Shown piece by piece: positions 6,734-35,652 of a stretch of 64,000 nucleotides of DNA (its first letter is position 1; each line of letters opens with the position of its first letter). Under the pieces are notes generated by a model. It was not told the origin of the DNA, ran no database searches, and saw only the letters and a program-made list of their open reading frames with translations. The DNA comes from a phage, in sequence record NC_135728.1; one strand, given 5' to 3'. The position numbers were made by a program, and so were the translations under genes.

Positions 6734-7347
6734 TGGATATTATTGTTCTTAACGCCCCACCCAGCAGCGGTAAGGATCACATTGCAGATCTCTTGTTGGA
6801 AGCTATTCCTAACTCACACCATCGTGAGGTTAAGGAGATGCTCTTCAGCGTGGCAATTAAGGCAGCTGGTGTAACTCCTCAACTCTGGAATGCACTTTAT
6901 GACCGCCACTACAAAGAAGAGCCTTGCCCTTTCTTAATGATAGACGGCAAGCATGTTTCTCCGCGAGAGTGGATGATCCATTGTAGTGAAAATCTGATTA
7001 AACCTATCTTTGGTGAAGATGCTTTCGGTAAGGCCGCAGTCACATCCTTGAAGAAAGATTTCCCTAAAGGTAAAGGGGTTGTTGTTTACTCCGATGGTGG
7101 ATTTAAAGAGGAGCTGGCGTGCCTTAGTGAGTACGCATACAGCACAGGTGGAGATCTGTTGTTGTTCCGTATTCACCGTGTCGGATATGACTGGGGAAAT
7201 GATTCCAGAACCTATCTAAGTCTGGAAAAGAACGGAATAAAAGGGATTGAGTTCGATGTTGTAAATCCTGAAGGTGCACCTTGGGAATGTGCATCGGAGA
7301 TTGTGTGCAAGTATATTGATGCTAAAGAGGCCCAAGAAGAATGTTAA
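6730..7347 (+). CDS. deoxynucleoside monophosphate kinase-like
   Basis: N-terminal IIVLNAPPSSGKDHIADLL resembles the P-loop of T4 gp1 dNMP kinase (LSGVKRSGKDTTADFI). Confidence 0.5.
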   Translation: MMDIIVLNAPPSSGKDHIADLLLEAIPNSHHREVKEMLFSVAIKAAGVTPQLWNALYDRHYKEEPCPFLMIDGKHVSPREWMIHCSENLIKPIFGEDAFGKAAVTSLKKDFPKGKGVVVYSDGGFKEELACLSEYAYSTGGDLLLFRIHRVGYDWGNDSRTYLSLEKNGIKGIEFDVVNPEGAPWECASEIVCKYIDAKEAQEEC

Positions 7348-30753: not shown

Positions 30754-31061
30754 GGTGGATTATGTCTACAAAGGCGGCTAAATACTCCTATATGCCATCA
30801 ACCTCTGCAGAGGTAGACTTTAGTTTCGATGTATTTCCACTGTTTGAGGTGGTTCTGGCATACCCTACAATACTATCTACTCCTGAATCACTTGTGCCTG
30901 TTAAGTTGCAGAACGCTATGCATTCCATGCACTACAACAATAAATGTAGGCACAGATGGTGTCAGGACGAGGAAAAAGATTTGGATAGTTTGAGGGATTT
31001 TGACAGTCACCTTTTGACACCTTTCAGCTACTCCAACCTTGATAAGCCCTCATGGGTATAG
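30750..31061 (+). CDS. hypothetical protein
   Basis: 103-aa ORF, coupled. Confidence 0.4.
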   Translation: MRWIMSTKAAKYSYMPSTSAEVDFSFDVFPLFEVVLAYPTILSTPESLVPVKLQNAMHSMHYNNKCRHRWCQDEEKDLDSLRDFDSHLLTPFSYSNLDKPSWV

Positions 31062-31085
31062 CAAAATATCAAATTTAAGACACCT

Positions 31086-31112
31086 AGGACGCTCTGTGGC
31101 GTCCTTTTCTTT
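31086..31112 (+). terminator. rho-independent terminator
   Basis: GGACGC-TCTGT-GGCGTCC hairpin followed by TTTTCTTT. Confidence 0.6.
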
Positions 31113-31275
31113 ATCTGGTGCACGATTGCATACCTTGGGTAGTTAATCTCATTACAGAGCGTTTAAGAGCTTCCTACAAACAACTCCATATTTCGAGCGT
31201 AGCGAGAACGCACGTCCGTTTTGACCCAAATCACCATACGCTCGGATTTTAACCAAACCCTCGCGGCGTTTCTGT

Positions 31276-31305
31276 TGACACATTGCCGCTCCAGTGATAG
31301 TATCC
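31276..31305 (+). promoter_or_regulatory. sigma70-like promoter TTGACA-N17-TAGTAT
   Basis: Hexamers read directly upstream of small ORFs at about 31324. Confidence 0.45.
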
Positions 31306-31323
31306 ACACATAGTCTGGAGAAT

Positions 31324-31425
31324 ATGGAGTGCACAATGAAAACATTGTCCGAAGTTTTGGTGGTGATCCTGATGATCATTACGTCCATAGCGGCTGTTGC
31401 CGGAATACTCACGGGTGGAACATGA
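31324..31425 (+). CDS. small hydrophobic peptide (about 33 aa)
   Basis: Below ORF-track cutoff; ATG after ggag RBS; translation MECTMKTLSEVLVVILMIITSIAAVAGILTGGT; stop overlaps next ATG. Confidence 0.3.
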   Translation: MECTMKTLSEVLVVILMIITSIAAVAGILTGGT

Positions 31426-31634
31426 TAAACACACATGCATCTGAAGAGACATCCAAAGGAGTGACTATATGTCCCTTGACTGAGCCAGTGCAAGAGGAAA
31501 ACTTCGATTCTGAAGATTCTCCATCTTTGCTCCAGGTAGATCCTGAGGCTGATGACCTAACGTGGGAAGACATCGTAGATATCTGGTTCTCTATTATGCC
31601 TGAGCACGAAGAGTTCAGGGGTGGTAGACTATGA
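31422..31634 (+). CDS. hypothetical acidic protein
   Basis: Internal ATG of ORF 31329..31634 overlapping upstream stop (ATGA); acidic C-terminus. Confidence 0.35.
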   Translation: MINTHASEETSKGVTICPLTEPVQEENFDSEDSPSLLQVDPEADDLTWEDIVDIWFSIMPEHEEFRGGRL

Positions 31635-31755
31635 AGCACCGAGCCCACACAGGTTCCTCATGCTAAAGCATGGCCTGAAGAGGCAAACGTGTATAATTCC
31701 AGCGTATTGGGACGTATAAAACCCAGTTCACACTCTCATTTCCAGAGGAGATTTC

Positions 31756-31971
31756 ATGAAGATAGAAATATTTGGTGGGGCTGACAACACTCGTGGCCTG
31801 ATTTACCTTGAATTCGATGAATCATACCTGCCAGAGGTGTTAAATATGGACTCTGTTGCTGAGGCTTTGGGAGTAAGTCCTAAAGATCTCCACTCTGGTG
31901 CTGAGATTGATGGTTGGGAGGAGACCATGAACATCGATTTCAGTGAAGTAGGGGATGAACCACTGGACTGA
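31756..31971 (+). CDS. small acidic protein (MKIEIF N-terminus)
   Basis: 71 aa, RBS gaggag; last plus-strand gene before the non-coding region. Confidence 0.45.
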   Translation: MKIEIFGGADNTRGLIYLEFDESYLPEVLNMDSVAEALGVSPKDLHSGAEIDGWEETMNIDFSEVGDEPLD

Positions 31972-32199
31972 CACACAATTAGTTGCCCGGCTAAAGTGCT
32001 GGGAGCACCCATAACACATCTTTCAACTAAATTTCCTACCACCACAATCACTTACCTCCCACACATGACTGTTTGCTTGTTTAGTGAGCAGTCATGCCTT
32101 GACATTCTTGCCTATCCTGATAAAATTAAGTTCTTCTCTTTTCTTTTACCGAGTAATTCGGGTTTTCTGTTCTCTTCGGTTTGAAGGGGTATGGAGATA

Positions 32200-32840
32200 C
32201 ACCTGAGTGAACAGGGTGAACAACCGAACCATTGGCTATGGCATTAGCATGGCGAAGCGGACGGGTGACGAAAGAGGGGCCGGAGGACACCAGTCACTGC
32301 CATATGATATATGGGTGATAACCTGAAGAGTCTGAATAAGTGTTTAAGTACCAGTCAGAGGAAAAGGTGAATGGTAGCCGAAGGGGGAGGGGGGTTACCT
32401 GCTTCTGTAAACATGCATCTGAAATACTACTTTAGATAACCTGAACCTGCCTTTCTGACAAATATTCCCTATTAAACTTGAATTATTTATAGAAAATACC
32501 ACAACACCACTTAAGTCTTTGATTTTACACACAAATCTTACAGATATTAAACCTCTCTATTTAACATACCTGTAACATATACTATACTCCACCTGTCTGA
32601 TCAATTTCCCCAACTACATCCCCATATTTTCCCTGTCTGTACTACCCCTGCCCCGCCGGGAGTCCCGTCATATCTGGCTTTCCAGCAAATATCACACCCA
32701 CAAATATCATCACCTGAAGAGGGTTTCATCCCATAATACATGCCTTACCTGAAGAGCGCTTCATATACCCCGTAAATTTTTTAATTGACCCCCTCCCCGC
32801 CGCCGGAGGGGTTGGCTTTTCCCACACAAACCTGAAGAGT
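32200..32840. repeat. dispersed ACCTGAAGAG repeats in non-coding region
   Basis: ACCTGAAGAG read at about 32322, 32712, 32750 and 32830, with ACCTGA half-sites at about 32205 and 32440. Confidence 0.5.
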
Positions 32841-33394
32841 CAGCCAGAAATATCTGAACAGCCAGTTATACCACGATTTTGTGCTTGTCCTACAGGAGTG
32901 CTTCCCTGTCAGGAGCCGGTAGCGACTGGAGTGCTGCCAGGCGGACGAAATGGGAATACTTCTCATTCTTATAACAATTCTCAAATATCGAGGCAGTGAG
33001 GCAAATTAATAGGTGAGGCCGTTCACACAGTGGCACAACATTTGCAACCTATCTTGTGGGATTGAATGAGAATACCTATCATTGTGAGAACTGTTATCAT
33101 TACGGGCAATTTAACATAATACCCATTATGCGCACCACTGGCGATACATACAGGGATTTATAACATGAGTTACTGTTTACGTATATAACAATTATATTTC
33201 TTACTATTTGTGTGGGATATAGTTAGCAGCCGATAGATTAGATATTGACCTGCAGACTTCCAACCGTCTAGACGTCTAAACGCCCACACAACAAGGTTTA
33301 TACATACATTACTGAATGTAAACAGGGCCGCAAAAATGCTACCATACAAGATTGTAAATTTTTCATGCAGCACTTGACAAAGAGGAGAAAAACT

Positions 33395-33476
33395 TGTCTG
33401 ACACTTTAGACACAATAGTGACATAATATGACACCTTTGACACACTGGACACATTAAACATAATTGACATGCCTGA
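33395..33476. repeat. array of (T/A/G)GACA(C/T) hexamers at about 10-bp spacing
   Basis: tgacac, agacac, tgacat, tgacac, tgacac, ggacac, tgacat read in series in AT-rich context. Confidence 0.5.
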
Positions 33477-33509
33477 CTGTTTACATAGCTAACTATTTAC
33501 TAAAAAATG

Positions 33510-33850
33510 ATAAGCCATGCCATTCGTTTGCATGATAAAGATTAGCAAGTTAATAATCTTTCGCTGGCTATGCCAGGTGACCTTTGGTCACCCCTTCGGG
33601 TGTTTCTATGACATAATATAAAAGCAGGGCAACTATTAGCAGATCATAGTTGCCTTGCTTGTTAACACCCTTGAGACGAAGGCTTTGCCTGAGTTTATGT
33701 CATGATTAACTAAATACAAGGCAACTATGATCTGATTAATAGTTTGCAGACAAACTATCACGGGGGTGATGGTTACTGCTTTTATATTATGTCGCGACTC
33801 CGTCGCGCCATGCCATTCGTTTGCATAGTTGCCTTATTGTTACGAATAAA
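33510..33850. repeat. inverted and direct repeat complex
   Basis: 18-bp perfect inverted repeat GACATAATATAAAAGCAG / CTGCTTTTATATTATGTC (about 33611 and 33777); direct repeat GCCATGCCATTCGTTTGCAT (about 33515 and 33808); palindromes GGTGACCTTTGGTCACC and GGCAACTAT...ATAGTTGCC. Confidence 0.55.
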
Positions 33851-34452
33851 ACAATTGCATTGTTAATGATTTCTTATCTTTCTCTTAGTCATCTAATGAT
33901 TCCAGTCAGTCTAGTAATGTACAGTAAACATTAGACGACTAAAGATTTCCCTGTTTATGATAACTCACCGTGATAATTTCAGGCTGTTTACTAAAAATGT
34001 TGACACCTAAGCTGATTTATGTTATGCAGTTTACACGAATAATTATTTTATGCAGGTATTGACTATTCCGTTATTCTATGGTTGGAATAAATACTTAGCA
34101 GACTATAGAATGGTGAGCGTACGTAAATTCTGAGATCTGGCGGCTATAGTTATACTCGATTTTTCACGTAGAACACGCTTTTGTGAGTGTGTAAGTGTAT
34201 GACTTATAAAGATTTTTAGTTGTTGACAAGATATTGAAGATGTGCATCAGGTTAAATTTTGTGCAATAGCGGCATTACGTGCAATTCTGAGAGAGAAAAC
34301 GGGTAAAAATGGCCCTGCTACCACAAGATGAAAGATTATGCAATAGTTATTTTTATATGTATATTTGTACAGTAGGGTTAATTGCTGGCTTGTTGATTAT
34401 TCCACTTGCCAGGTGGGGCCGTTTGTGGTAGGAGAAATACAGACAAAAAGAA

Positions 34453-34480
34453 AGGGGCCTTTTAAAGCCCCTGATAGTTT
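34453..34480 (-). terminator. rho-independent terminator (minus strand)
   Basis: Minus-strand hairpin AGGGGC-TTTAAAA-GGCCCCT followed by TTCTTTTTGTCT after stop of 34491..34910. Confidence 0.5.
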
Positions 34481-34490
34481 AGTTAAGAAA

Positions 34491-34910
34491 TTATAATGAT
34501 TCGTATATTTCAAAAATCCGATTTGCCAGGTCGTTACGGTAGCGGAATTTTTCCTCACGTTTGATCATCAGATCTTTAAAGCCATATTCTTTAAGCACTT
34601 CATTAACTTTATGGCGGCATACCTTCATATTATCTTGTGCGTCACCAATAAACTTGTTGCTATGGTGCATGGCTTTAATTTCTTCTTCCAGGACCAGGGC
34701 AACTATGCGGACCGGATCAAGCTGATAGGCGGTAACATCAATGCGGCATTGTAAACGGCTTTTTACGTCTGCCACCGGATATACTGCAACCTCTTCCCCG
34801 TCAACATTGACAATAATTAGTTTACCATCGATTTCGAATCCTTTCGCCGCCGGACCGTGACAAAAAGCGTTATCAAAGCTATATGCCGGATTATTAGATT
34901 TAATGTTCAT
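34491..34910 (-). CDS. hypothetical protein
   Basis: 139-aa ORF with agagg RBS and upstream promoter. Confidence 0.5.
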   Translation of the reverse strand: MNIKSNNPAYSFDNAFCHGPAAKGFEIDGKLIIVNVDGEEVAVYPVADVKSRLQCRIDVTAYQLDPVRIVALVLEEEIKAMHHSNKFIGDAQDNMKVCRHKVNEVLKEYGFKDLMIKREEKFRYRNDLANRIFEIYESL

Positions 34911-34959
34911 GGTGTTTTTACCTCTTAGTTAATTTTCTTACAACTTCCCTTCAAAAAAG

Positions 34960-34988
34960 AATATAGCAAAACTGCCGATCCTTGTCAA
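34960..34988 (-). promoter_or_regulatory. sigma70-like promoter TTGACA-N17-TATATT with palindrome over -35
   Basis: Minus-strand hexamers read directly; ATCCTTGGTTGACAAGGAT palindrome spans the -35. Confidence 0.5.
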
Positions 34989-35055
34989 CCAAGGATAGCA
35001 TAATTTTTATGTGATCAAGGGGCTTTATTGCCCCCTGATCGTGCAACTTGTTGTA

Positions 35056-35319
35056 TTATTTGTTACTCATCCAGTTTTCCCAGGCTGCCTGATAATCTGC
35101 CTCACTGCGGCGGATCTCTTCTTGCTCTTCAAGTCGGATCTCTTCTTCCAGGTACCCCAAGATATCGGCTTTCTTGGTCTGGCGTAACATCCAATCATCT
35201 TTTTTACGGGTAAAGATCTTATATGCTTTCTCGCAAACCTCTTTTTTGCTACCTTTTTGGACTTCAAGAACTTTGTAGGCCATGTACTGAACTAGTTTAA
35301 GCTGATCAAGACGTTTCAT
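35056..35319 (-). CDS. hypothetical protein
   Basis: 87-aa ORF with agagg RBS. Confidence 0.45.
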   Translation of the reverse strand: MKRLDQLKLVQYMAYKVLEVQKGSKKEVCEKAYKIFTRKKDDWMLRQTKKADILGYLEEEIRLEEQEEIRRSEADYQAAWENWMSNK

Positions 35320-35379
35320 GATGTTTACCTCTTTGTGTGGTTCTGATTAGTGGGCCTCCCGGCCCGTGTCATTATCTTA

Positions 35380-35652
35380 TTACTTACGGCGGCAGAATTC
35401 AAGCGTTTTTAATTGATAATCTTCCTCAGCCTGGAGTACAACCGCCTCGATCATTTCGTTGGCATTGTTGAAGCCATACCCTTTAGCGAACTCGTCCGCA
35501 CCACCTTCGTGATCATGTTCTGCGTTCATCGCTTCCACAAAATGGAATTCCAAATTGTTGAGGTAGGGGCTTGATGTGCCGTCTTCTTTTTCGATGAGAT
35601 CCCAAATAGCATTAAAACGTGATTCGACTTCTTGATTAATCCAGCTTGACAT
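35380..35652 (-). CDS. hypothetical acidic protein
   Basis: 90-aa ORF; upstream promoter and UTR hairpin. Confidence 0.45.
   Translation of the reverse strand: MSSWINQEVESRFNAIWDLIEKEDGTSSPYLNNLEFHFVEAMNAEHDHEGGADEFAKGYGFNNANEMIEAVVLQAEEDYQLKTLEFCRRK

What the first reader, a model, noticed from the sequence alone, without database searches (positions are those of the whole stretch)
33395..33476. Helically phased TGACA(C) iteron-like array
Seven (T/A/G)GACA(C/T) hexamers spaced about 10-11 bp apart in an AT-rich stretch. Same-face phasing is typical of initiator-binding iterons at origins or of multimeric regulator binding sites.
Basis: seen in the sequence. Interest (0 to 1): 0.55.

Follow-up and report, generated by a model that had tools for sequence, protein, structure and literature searches.

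The report
Phased repeat array beside phage terminal repeat
The phased TGACAY repeats are real, but they start at the first base after the 459-bp terminal repeat of an rV5-like E. coli phage, so they more likely belong to the genome-end and DNA-packaging region, as the short repeats beside T7's terminal repeat do, than to a replication origin.

Summary
Seven (T/A/G)GACA(C/T) hexamers, eight units counting a degenerate AACAT, lie at 33399-33471 with a 9-11 bp period. No other 80-bp stretch of the window holds more than 3.

The window is a Vequintavirus (rV5-like myovirus). The array sits in its 2.5-kb ORF-free zone between convergent gene blocks. That zone holds the 459-bp direct terminal repeat (DTR), window 32940-33398. 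One relative's record carries identical 459-bp ends, three records open exactly at those two positions, and two papers report 458/459-bp terminal redundancy.

The array starts at 33399, the first base after the DTR. In 17 genomes (this window and 16 relatives) the DTR end CTTGTC|TGACAY is invariant and the DTR is 457-460 bp. The repeat zone beyond it ranges from 79 to 207 bp, with 1-8 exact GACAY units and then a second ACTGTTYAC array of 15-16 bp period.

T7 has the same layout: 12 CCTAAAG at a 13-bp period just after its terminal repeat.

A much better origin candidate lies about 40 kb away in rV5: four 22-bp iterons, an AT-rich stretch and an initiator-like gene.

Best reading: a cis element of end formation or packaging, possibly a terminase loading site. 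This is inferred, not shown. Novelty and interest are moderate.

The parts
32940..33398 (.). Direct terminal repeat (DTR) of the phage genome, 459 bp. Present once in this circularly joined or concatemer-like representation.
   Evidence: The ECP2309 record has identical 459-bp ends that map to window 32940 and 33398. The Pr121LW and EcoIv14a_Aya records open at 33398 and bov10K2 opens at 32940. LL12 has a 459-bp non-permuted terminal redundancy in a noncoding region between convergent transcripts (PMC6658697). EdH4 and HdK5 have 458 bp (PMC6563267). The length is 459 bp in 15 of 17 genomes and 457 and 460 bp in the other two.
33393..33404 (.). Right DTR boundary CTTGTC|TGACAC. It has small inverted-repeat arms TGTC/GACA around the junction base, and the first array unit is part of it.
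   Evidence: The boundary is invariant in all 17 genomes, and the first GACAY is always at offset +1 after the DTR end. On the bottom strand the junction reads TGTCA|GAC. The top strand at the left boundary reads TGCCA|GGC, identical at 6 of 8 positions. Taking this as a shared nick-site motif is my inference.
33399..33471 (+). Array A, the reported finding: 7 exact and 1 degenerate TGACAY units at a 9-11 bp period, all in one orientation.
   Evidence: Searches give positions and statistics. Searches show 1-8 exact units in relatives, with degenerate RRCAY units keeping the phase. Single-unit gaps of 9, 10 and 11 bp occur 13, 16 and 14 times. Single-stranded DNA of the array region has no folding potential (z = -0.42).
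33472..33500 (+). Array B: two ACTRTTTAC units 16 bp apart (33476-33484 and 33492-33500). This is the stub of a second array that has up to 9 copies in relatives.
   Evidence: 1-9 copies per genome, and 46 of 55 gaps are 15-16 bp.
32862..32939 (+). Length-variable zone immediately left of the DTR, with CWGGAG repeats at 32893, 32910 and 32926.
   Evidence: One search shows mean column identity of 0.76-0.83 here with gaps, against 0.93-1.00 in the surrounding sequence. Searches (family D15) show the repeats. The duplication is present in some relatives and absent in others.
33514..33533 (+). Conserved 20-mer GCCATGCCATTCGTTTGCAT, copy 1. It marks the right edge of the variable repeat zone.
   Evidence: family D4, 100% identical copies at 33514 and 33807. 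It served as the right anchor in all relatives.
33610..33793 (.). Long inverted repeat (184-nt hairpin or cruciform potential), followed by 20-mer copy 2 at 33807-33826.
   Evidence: I1 and I3, 18/18-nt arms.: -52 kcal/mol as DNA, z = -11.6. The arms are 99-100% conserved and the loop is variable. A7_1 and LTH01 carry an inverted repeat with a different sequence at the same place.

Best explanation
The array is the innermost part of a short-repeat zone that directly abuts the right boundary of the phage's 459-bp direct terminal repeat. In virion DNA it therefore lies 460-530 bp from the left end. In the replicating concatemer it sits immediately beside the site where the genome end is cut. I propose it is a cis-acting element of end formation and packaging. 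The first unit (CTTGTC|TGACAY) is part of the cleavage or nick site. The following same-orientation TGACAY/RRCAY units, one per helical turn, are extra copies of that half-site. They load or hold the terminase, most likely its oligomeric small subunit, or another end-processing factor on one face of the DNA next to the cut. Lambda cosB beside cosN, the hexamers flanking the P1 pac cut and the SRL repeats beside the T7 terminal repeat occupy the same kind of position. What is shown: the array's position relative to the DTR, the invariance of the junction, the conservation of core and phase, and the turnover of copy number. What is inferred: that any protein binds, which protein it is, and the link to cleavage.
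For: (1) The window is a Vequintavirus. The DTR maps to 32940-33398 and the array starts at 33399. (2) In 17 genomes (this window and 16 relatives) the junction CTTGTC|TGACAY is invariant and the DTR is 457-460 bp. The adjoining repeat zone spans 79-207 bp. (3) The core is kept while spacers differ (TTTA, AATAGT, AATAT, CTTT, ACTG). T occurs at position -1 in 64 of 73 units and T at +7 in 58 of 73. Gaps cluster at 9, 10 and 11 bp, and degenerate RRCAY units hold the phase. (4) Both flanks of the DTR are the length-variable spots of an otherwise 93-100% conserved 2.4-kb noncoding region. (5) T7 shows the same anatomy: terminal repeat 1-160, then 12 CCTAAAG at a 13-bp period over about 175-341. 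(6) The two DTR boundaries share TGYCA|GRC when each is read on the strand that would carry the new 5' end. This fits one nuclease acting at both sites. (7) A strongly conserved 184-nt hairpin lies about 210 bp further in. It shows the region carries further conserved cis structure. (8) The alternatives tested are weaker: origin and promoter.
Against: There is no binding, cleavage or packaging experiment for any Vequintavirus, and I did not identify the small terminase subunit. bov10K2 has a single exact unit plus three degenerate ones, so most units may be dispensable. Phapecoctavirus (328-bp DTR) and the A7_1/LTH01 clade have no TGACAY array, so the element is genus-specific. To my knowledge (from memory, not checked here) the function of T7's SRL is itself not established. 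Some PhageTerm analyses of Vequintavirus isolates reported circular permutation or headful packaging instead of fixed ends. A tandemly duplicated 10-bp unit gives a 10-bp phase without any selection for helical phasing.
Confidence: 0.5

Rival explanations
1. Neutral by-product. Only the first TGACAY, as part of the cut site, is functional. The other units are a fast-evolving minisatellite made by slippage, unequal exchange or template switching during end repair or DTR duplication, and the 10-bp phase simply reflects the length of the duplicated unit.
For: Copy number ranges from 1 to 8 and the repeat zone from 79 to 207 bp among genomes that are 90-95% identical around it. The same core-plus-spacer units (GACACAATAT, GACATAATGGT, GACACTTTA and others) recur in different orders, as expected from unit shuffling. 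The neighbouring array B, with a 15-16 bp period that is not helically phased, behaves the same way. The left flank of the DTR also varies in length.
Against: The core is far better conserved than the spacers. Degenerate units keep RRCAY and the phase even where exact units are lost (bov10K2 and the gut-metagenome contig). All 17 genomes retain at least about four phased units. The array is strictly one-stranded in orientation.
Confidence: 0.22
2. Transcription signal. The TGACA hexamers act as -35 elements and the TGACATAAT units as extended -10 elements, giving overlapping rightward sigma-70 promoters at the genome's left end. Alternatively the array is an upstream binding region for the leftward promoter-like site inside the DTR.
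For: In the window, TTGACA-16-CATAAT (33437-33464, 11 of 12 matches) and CTGACA-18-CATAAT with TG (33398-33427) are present. Two units 20 bp apart automatically give a 17-bp spacer. A conserved leftward TTGTCA-18-TACAAT lies at 33380-33351. T7 has a leftward E. coli promoter, A0, annotated inside its SRL.
Against: A promoter-like arrangement of at least 10 of 12 matches occurs in the repeat zone of only 8 of 16 genomes. No + strand ORF of 50 aa or more follows for about 1 kb, and the next genes run the opposite way. The number of promoter-like hits in 31500-35000 is not clearly above shuffles (15 against 10.2, sd 3.1). No Rfam family matches.
Confidence: 0.12
3. Origin-type iterons. A phage initiator binds the phased repeats and replication starts here, for example as a secondary, end-proximal origin.
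For: The array consists of phased direct repeats in an AT-rich (66%) stretch. The half-sites of the rV5 origin-like iterons, CGGACA(C/G), share the GACA(C) core with the array units. The chance of such an overlap is roughly 0.07 by my estimate.
Against: Units are about 10 bp with a 6-bp core, and their number is not conserved. No initiator-like gene is adjacent; the flanking ORFs tested are of unknown function or a transcriptional regulator. rV5 has 4 x 21-22-bp iterons at 65151-65236, next to an AT-rich tract and the gp075 'replication initiation protein' (PHROG 12838, weak HTH_36), about 40 kb away. The array lies at a cumulative GC-skew maximum that coincides with converging transcription.
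Confidence: 0.07
4. Host response-regulator sites. On the bottom strand the units read (G/A)TGTCA followed by an A/T-rich spacer. From memory this resembles tandem Pho-box half-sites (CTGTCAT at an 11-bp period) bound head-to-tail by OmpR/PhoB-family proteins.
For: The only support is a motif resemblance, recalled from memory: a TGTCA core, an A/T-rich 4-6 bp spacer and direct-repeat geometry (sequence).
Against: The period is 9-11 bp (mean 10.0) rather than a fixed 11 bp. The first base is G or A, not C. No -10 element sits at the expected distance. No phosphate-related gene lies downstream. No matrix scan could be run here.
Confidence: 0.04

Closest known systems
T7 SRL/SRR short-repeat arrays flanking the 160-bp terminal repeat
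   Same: Both are same-orientation arrays of a 6-7 bp core at a regular short period, lying in unique sequence directly next to a short exact terminal repeat at the left genome end. I checked this on the T7 sequence: terminal repeat 1-160, then 12 CCTAAAG at a 13-bp period over about 175-341. In both phages a leftward host-type promoter or promoter-like site lies in or next to the array.
   Different: The core sequence differs. The period is 10 bp against 13 bp. The Vequintavirus array starts at the very first base after the DTR, while T7's starts about 15 bp in. The virus group differs: a 138-kb myovirus using host RNA polymerase against a 40-kb podovirus. Copy number is hypervariable here. 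A matching array on the other DTR flank is weak or absent (CWGGAG, 1-3 copies). The function of the T7 arrays is, to my knowledge, not settled.
Terminase recognition sites next to the cut site: lambda cosB (R3-R2-R1) beside cosN, the TGATCA/G hexamers flanking the P1 pac cut, and SPP1 pacL/pacR boxes (all recalled from memory)
   Same: Repeated short recognition elements lie immediately beside the position where the terminase cuts. They are thought to assemble an oligomeric small subunit and bend or wrap the DNA.
   Different: Those phages make cohesive ends or package by the headful, whereas this phage has exact 459-bp direct repeats. No binding data exist here. Neither the element sequences nor the proteins show homology.
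Iteron-type replication origins (for example lambda ori, plasmid iterons, and the rV5 65.15-kb iterons found here)
   Same: Both consist of direct repeats phased with the helix in or near AT-rich DNA.
   Different: Classical iterons are 17-22 bp, have a fixed number and sit next to the initiator gene. rV5's own candidate fits that description (4 x 21-22 bp, AT-rich tract, gp075). The TGACAY array does not.

Membership tests
Short-repeat arrays flanking a direct terminal repeat (T7 SRL/SRR type) | Lies in unique sequence directly adjacent to an exact short DTR | tested here: met
   The DTR is 32940-33398 and the array starts at 33399 (literature).
Short-repeat arrays flanking a direct terminal repeat (T7 SRL/SRR type) | Many same-orientation copies of a 6-7 bp core at a regular short period | tested here: met
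   There are 7 exact and 1 degenerate units at 9-11 bp. For comparison, T7 has 12 CCTAAAG at 13 bp.
Short-repeat arrays flanking a direct terminal repeat (T7 SRL/SRR type) | A counterpart array on the other side of the DTR (SRR) | tested here: inconclusive
   Three CWGGAG at 16-17 bp lie left of 32940 in the window, but only one in rV5, Pr121LW and ECP2309. That flank is length-variable.
Short-repeat arrays flanking a direct terminal repeat (T7 SRL/SRR type) | A role in concatemer processing or packaging | not testable with these tools
   This needs packaging or transduction assays or terminase footprinting.
Terminase small-subunit recognition site (cosB/pac-like) | Immediately adjacent to the terminase cleavage position | tested here: met
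   The genome end maps to 33398|33399, inside the first unit's context CTTGTC|TGACAC.
Terminase small-subunit recognition site (cosB/pac-like) | Specific binding by the small terminase subunit | not testable with these tools
   The small subunit was not identified here and no binding data exist.
Replication-origin iterons | Direct repeats of about 17-22 bp in a conserved number | tested here: not met
   The unit is 9-11 bp with a 6-bp core, and there are 1-8 exact copies among 17 genomes.
Replication-origin iterons | Linked initiator gene and/or a DnaA-box or AT-rich unwinding element | tested here: not met
   The flanking ORFs tested have no Pfam hits and match PHROGs of unknown function or a transcriptional regulator. 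The initiator-like gene with its own iterons and AT-rich tract lies at rV5 65.0-65.7 kb.
Sigma-70 promoter cluster | Conserved -35/-10 pair with a 16-18 bp spacer and a downstream gene | tested here: not met
   A promoter-like pair is present in the window but in only 8 of 16 genomes. No + strand ORF of 50 aa or more follows for about 1 kb.
Known RNA families (Rfam) | A match to a curated covariance model | tested here: not met
   The only hit in 31000-35500 is a sub-threshold suhB match at 34438-34506 (E = 0.19), which is not in the array.

The most novel reading that the evidence does not exclude
The array is a second binding locus for the phage's small winged-helix replication initiator, the homologue of rV5 gp075. 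The half-sites of that protein's candidate origin iterons, CGGACA(C/G), share the GACA(C) core with the TGACAY units. Binding here would couple replication, as an end-proximal secondary origin or a fork barrier, to formation of the terminal repeat at the concatemer junction.
Probability: 0.07. Interest if true: 0.6.

Novelty: new member of a known kind. Interest (0 to 1): 0.4.

Why it matters
rV5-like phages are common E. coli phages and are used in phage typing and in biocontrol and therapy work. Their 2.5-kb 'non-coding' box has had no explanation since the rV5 genome paper. I know of no experiment on how phages with short exact terminal repeats, other than the T7 group, recognise and cut their ends. 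This analysis places the DTR precisely in this window. It also shows an invariant junction followed by a phased, fast-evolving repeat array. That gives a concrete candidate for the packaging recognition site, which can be tested by footprinting, array deletions and plasmid-packaging assays. It is also relevant to correct genome orientation and annotation, and to engineering or rebooting these phages. It is not a new kind of element, because T7 has an analogous array.

Tried and rejected
- **Rfam:** an E-value scan of 31000-35500 found nothing in the array.
- **Secondary structure:** the array region shows no single-strand structure (z = -0.42), so a hairpin or RNA-structure reading is rejected.
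- **Coding:** the 94-aa minus-strand ORF 33170-33454 starts inside the length-variable array and crosses the DTR boundary. I judge it spurious; FFH2 annotates a similar CDS.
- **Promoter cluster:** not conserved, present in 8 of 16 genomes.
- **Origin:** rejected as the main reading.
- **ORF164 homologue (34491-34910, 139 aa) as the array's binding protein:** unlikely. It is about 90% identical in Phapecoctavirus, which lacks the TGACAY array.
- **Same array in other genera:** Phapecoctavirus Mt1B1_P17 (exact 328-bp DTR) and the A7_1/LTH01 clade have other short repeats but no TGACAY array. Their DTR boundaries, except Mt1B1_P17's, could not be placed.
- **A shared nick motif across genera:** only weakly supported. 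Vequintavirus shows TGYCA|GRC and Mt1B1_P17 shows TGYTK|ARC.
- **Collection scans with junction patterns:** these added only one viral locus and one metagenome locus.
- **Literature on T7 SRL function and on repeats beside DTRs:** the searches returned nothing usable. Statements about T7 SRL function, lambda cosB, P1 pac, SPP1 pac and Pho boxes rest on memory.
- **LL12 record:** it is not in the phage collection, so its 104,966-105,424 coordinates could not be mapped directly.
- **Tandem Repeats Finder:** it detects the arrays only weakly.

Full report
**1.
Between 33399 and 33471 the + strand reads T-GACAC-TTTA-GACAC-AATAGT-GACAT-AATAT-GACAC-CTTT-GACAC-ACTG-GACAC-ATTA-AACAT-AATT-GACAT. Exact GACAY cores start at 33400, 33409, 33420, 33430, 33439, 33448 and 33466. 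A degenerate AACAT at 33457 splits the single 18-bp gap into two 9-bp units. All units point the same way.

The Poisson probability of seven or more is 2.7e-11, about 3e-6 after correcting for all positions and both strands. In 200 first-order Markov simulations of the window the best 72-bp stretch held 2-4 matches. The next densest real 80-bp stretch holds 3. The stretch is 66% AT against 57% for the window.

**2. Where it is.**
The 2.2 kb around the array matches 121 phage records at about 90-95% identity. Nearly all are Vequintavirus, the rV5-like E. coli myoviruses of about 138 kb. In rV5 the homologous region is a 2.6-kb ORF-free gap between ORF163 (+ strand) and ORF164 (- strand), where two gene blocks converge. 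The rV5 genome paper drew it only as a 'non-coding' box and attributed the local skew change to transcription orientation. The window's GC skew changes sign at about 30-32 kb.

**3. The gap contains the genome termini.**
- Phages EdH4 and HdK5 have 458-bp terminal redundancies (PMC6563267).
- The ECP2309 record begins and ends with an identical 459-bp sequence. Its first base aligns to window 32940 (GGCGGACGAAATGGG...) and its last to window 33398 (...AAAACTTGTC).
- Independently, the Pr121LW and EcoIv14a_Aya records are opened exactly at 33398 and bov10K2 at 32940.

So the DTR is window 32940-33398, and the array begins at 33399, the first base after it. Two other announcements reported 'circularly permuted' or headful packaging from PhageTerm. 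I give these less weight than the exact duplicated ends and the coincident record boundaries.

**4. Behaviour among relatives.**
I compared this window with 16 relatives, 17 genomes in all.
- The DTR end and the first unit, CTTGTC|TGACAY, are invariant.
- The DTR is 459 bp in 15 genomes and 457 and 460 bp in the other two.
- The stretch between the DTR and the next conserved landmark (GCCATGCCATTCGTTTGCAT) ranges from 79 to 207 bp.
- That stretch consists of array A followed by array B.
- Array A has 1-8 exact GACAY units, plus degenerate RRCAY units that keep the phase. Of 57 gaps, 13, 16 and 14 are 9, 10 and 11 bp, and 7 are 18-19 bp.
- Array B has 1-9 ACTGTTYAC units, and 46 of 55 gaps are 15-16 bp.
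- Around the core, T at -1 (64 of 73) and T at +7 (58 of 73) carry information. The rest of the spacer varies.
- The same unit types recur in different orders in different phages.

In a four-genome alignment of the whole gap, sequence is 93-100% conserved apart from a few spots. The most gapped are the two zones that flank the DTR (32862-32940 and 33412-33511); 32412-32461, 33562-33611 and 33662-33711 also vary. The array is thus a conserved feature with fast turnover of copy number.

**5. Tests of the alternatives.**
*Origin iterons.*
- None of the eight ORFs tested on either side has a Pfam hit. Seven belong to PHROGs of unknown function. The eighth, about 3 kb away, is a transcriptional regulator.
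- Scanning rV5 1-112,627 for GACAY clusters found the array and one other locus.
- That locus, at 65,151-65,236, has four tandem 21-22-bp repeats GTGTCCGTATCACGGACAGTTA. A very AT-rich tract lies on one side and gp075 on the other.
- gp075 is a 116-aa protein in PHROG 12838 'replication initiation protein', with a near-threshold HTH_36 match.
- This is a textbook origin layout, about 40 kb from the array and outside this window.
- The shared GACA(C) core between those half-sites and the array units is noted. It could easily be chance.

*Promoters.*
- The window has two promoter-like pairs in the array.
- Such pairs occur in only 8 of 16 genomes.
- No + strand ORF of 50 aa or more follows for about 1 kb.

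*Structure.* The array region has no folding potential, and Rfam finds nothing.

**6. Comparison with known systems.**
I read the T7 sequence directly. Its 160-bp terminal repeat is followed by twelve CCTAAAG heptamers at a 13-bp period over about 175-341. A leftward E. coli promoter, A0, is annotated inside that array. The Vequintavirus array has the same anatomy with a different core and a 10-bp period.

It is also positioned like the terminase recognition repeats next to the cut sites of lambda (cosB), P1 (pac hexamers) and SPP1. That comparison is from memory.

The two DTR boundaries resemble each other when each is read on the strand that would carry the new 5' end: TGCCA|GGC at the left and TGTCA|GAC at the right, identical at 6 of 8 positions. 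This suggests one nuclease nicking opposite strands 459 bp apart. It also makes the array units look like repeats of the upstream half of that site. This step is inference.

The element is genus-specific. Phapecoctavirus Mt1B1_P17 has an exact 328-bp DTR and no TGACAY array. The A7_1/LTH01 clade has other short repeats.

**7. Verdict.**
- *Position:* the array is a real, phased, conserved but copy-number-variable repeat that abuts the terminal repeat. Confidence in this positional statement is high.
- *Best explanation:* it most likely belongs to the end-formation and packaging apparatus, as a terminase loading site built from copies of the cut-site half (confidence about 0.5).
- *Main rival:* it is a functionless minisatellite beyond its first unit (about 0.22).
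- *Other rivals:* promoter or regulator roles (about 0.12), initiator binding (about 0.07) and host response-regulator binding (about 0.04).
- *Novelty and interest:* it is a new member of a known kind, DTR-flanking short-repeat arrays. I found no published description of it in the papers I could search. Interest is moderate.

Noticed in passing
rV5 NC_011041 65,020-65,660 (locus L030 15020-15660); outside the window: Candidate replication origin. Four tandem 21-22-bp iterons GTGTCCGTATCACGGACAGTTA, each an internal palindrome, lie next to a very AT-rich tract and directly 3' of gp075. gp075 is in PHROG 12838 'replication initiation protein' and has a near-threshold HTH_36 match. I saw no mention of this in the rV5 paper.
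   Followed up: partly
window 33610-33793, with 20-mers at 33514-33533 and 33807-33826: A 184-nt perfect-armed inverted repeat (DNA fold -52 kcal/mol, z = -11.6), bracketed by two identical copies of GCCATGCCATTCGTTTGCAT, lies about 210 bp inside the DTR boundary. The arms are 99-100% conserved and the loop varies. The A7_1/LTH01 clade has an inverted repeat of different sequence at the same place (GACACTATAAAACGAGG.../...CTCGTTTTATAGTGTC). It could be a concatemer-processing hairpin, as proposed for T7 (from memory), or a bidirectional terminator.
   Followed up: partly
window 33472-33500; rV5 locus L001 about 7140-7290: A second array of ACTGTTYAC units with a 15-16 bp period lies directly after the TGACAY array. 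It has only 2 copies in this window but up to 9 in rV5, Miata and BP9. A further ACTGTTTAC copy lies inside the DTR at about 33172 (repeat family D1).
   Followed up: yes
window 33066-33100; Mt1B1_P17 record about 55-75 and 235-255: Inside the DTR there are two adjacent 7-1-7 palindromes, TGAGAATACCTATCA and TGAGAACTGTTATCA. The Phapecoctavirus DTR has TGAGAATAATTATCA, one mismatch from the Fur-box 7-1-7 consensus as I recall it. These may be binding sites for a dimeric protein, possibly host Fur, inside the terminal repeat.
   Followed up: no
window 32099-32411: A near-consensus promoter (TTGACA-16-TAAAAT with TG, 11 of 12 matches) is followed by about 300 nt with no annotated gene in rV5. 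This stretch is 95-100% identical in four genomes and purine-rich. Its RNA fold has z = -2.1, and no Rfam family matches. ACCTGAAGAG occurs four times between 32321 and 32839. It could be an unrecognised non-coding RNA or another cis element.
   Followed up: partly
window 34491-34910 (- strand): The first gene inward of the left DTR (rV5 ORF164, 139 aa, PHROG 12277, no Pfam hit) is about 90% identical at protein level between Vequintavirinae and Phapecoctavirus (Stephanstirmvirinae). In both it is the gene nearest the terminus. That is unusually conserved for a small protein of unknown function.
   Followed up: partly
window 32862-32939: The left flank of the DTR also varies in length. The block ACAGGAGTGCTTCC CTGTCAGGAGCCGGTAGCG ACTGGAGTGCTGCC (CWGGAG x3) is present in this window, Miata and Aya but collapsed to one copy in rV5, Pr121LW and ECP2309.
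   Followed up: partly
window 33170-33454 (- strand): A 94-aa ATG ORF starts inside the variable array and crosses the DTR boundary, so it is almost certainly not a gene. FFH2 and MiataMamis annotate small CDSs across this non-coding zone, which look like over-calls.
   Followed up: partly
phage collection hits MG0656xx (for example MG065658, MG065662): Nineteen records named 'Campylobacter phage' (at least one, MG065662, is marked UNVERIFIED; host given as C. jejuni) are about 93% identical to this E. coli Vequintavirus region. They are probably mislabelled or contaminant assemblies.
   Followed up: no
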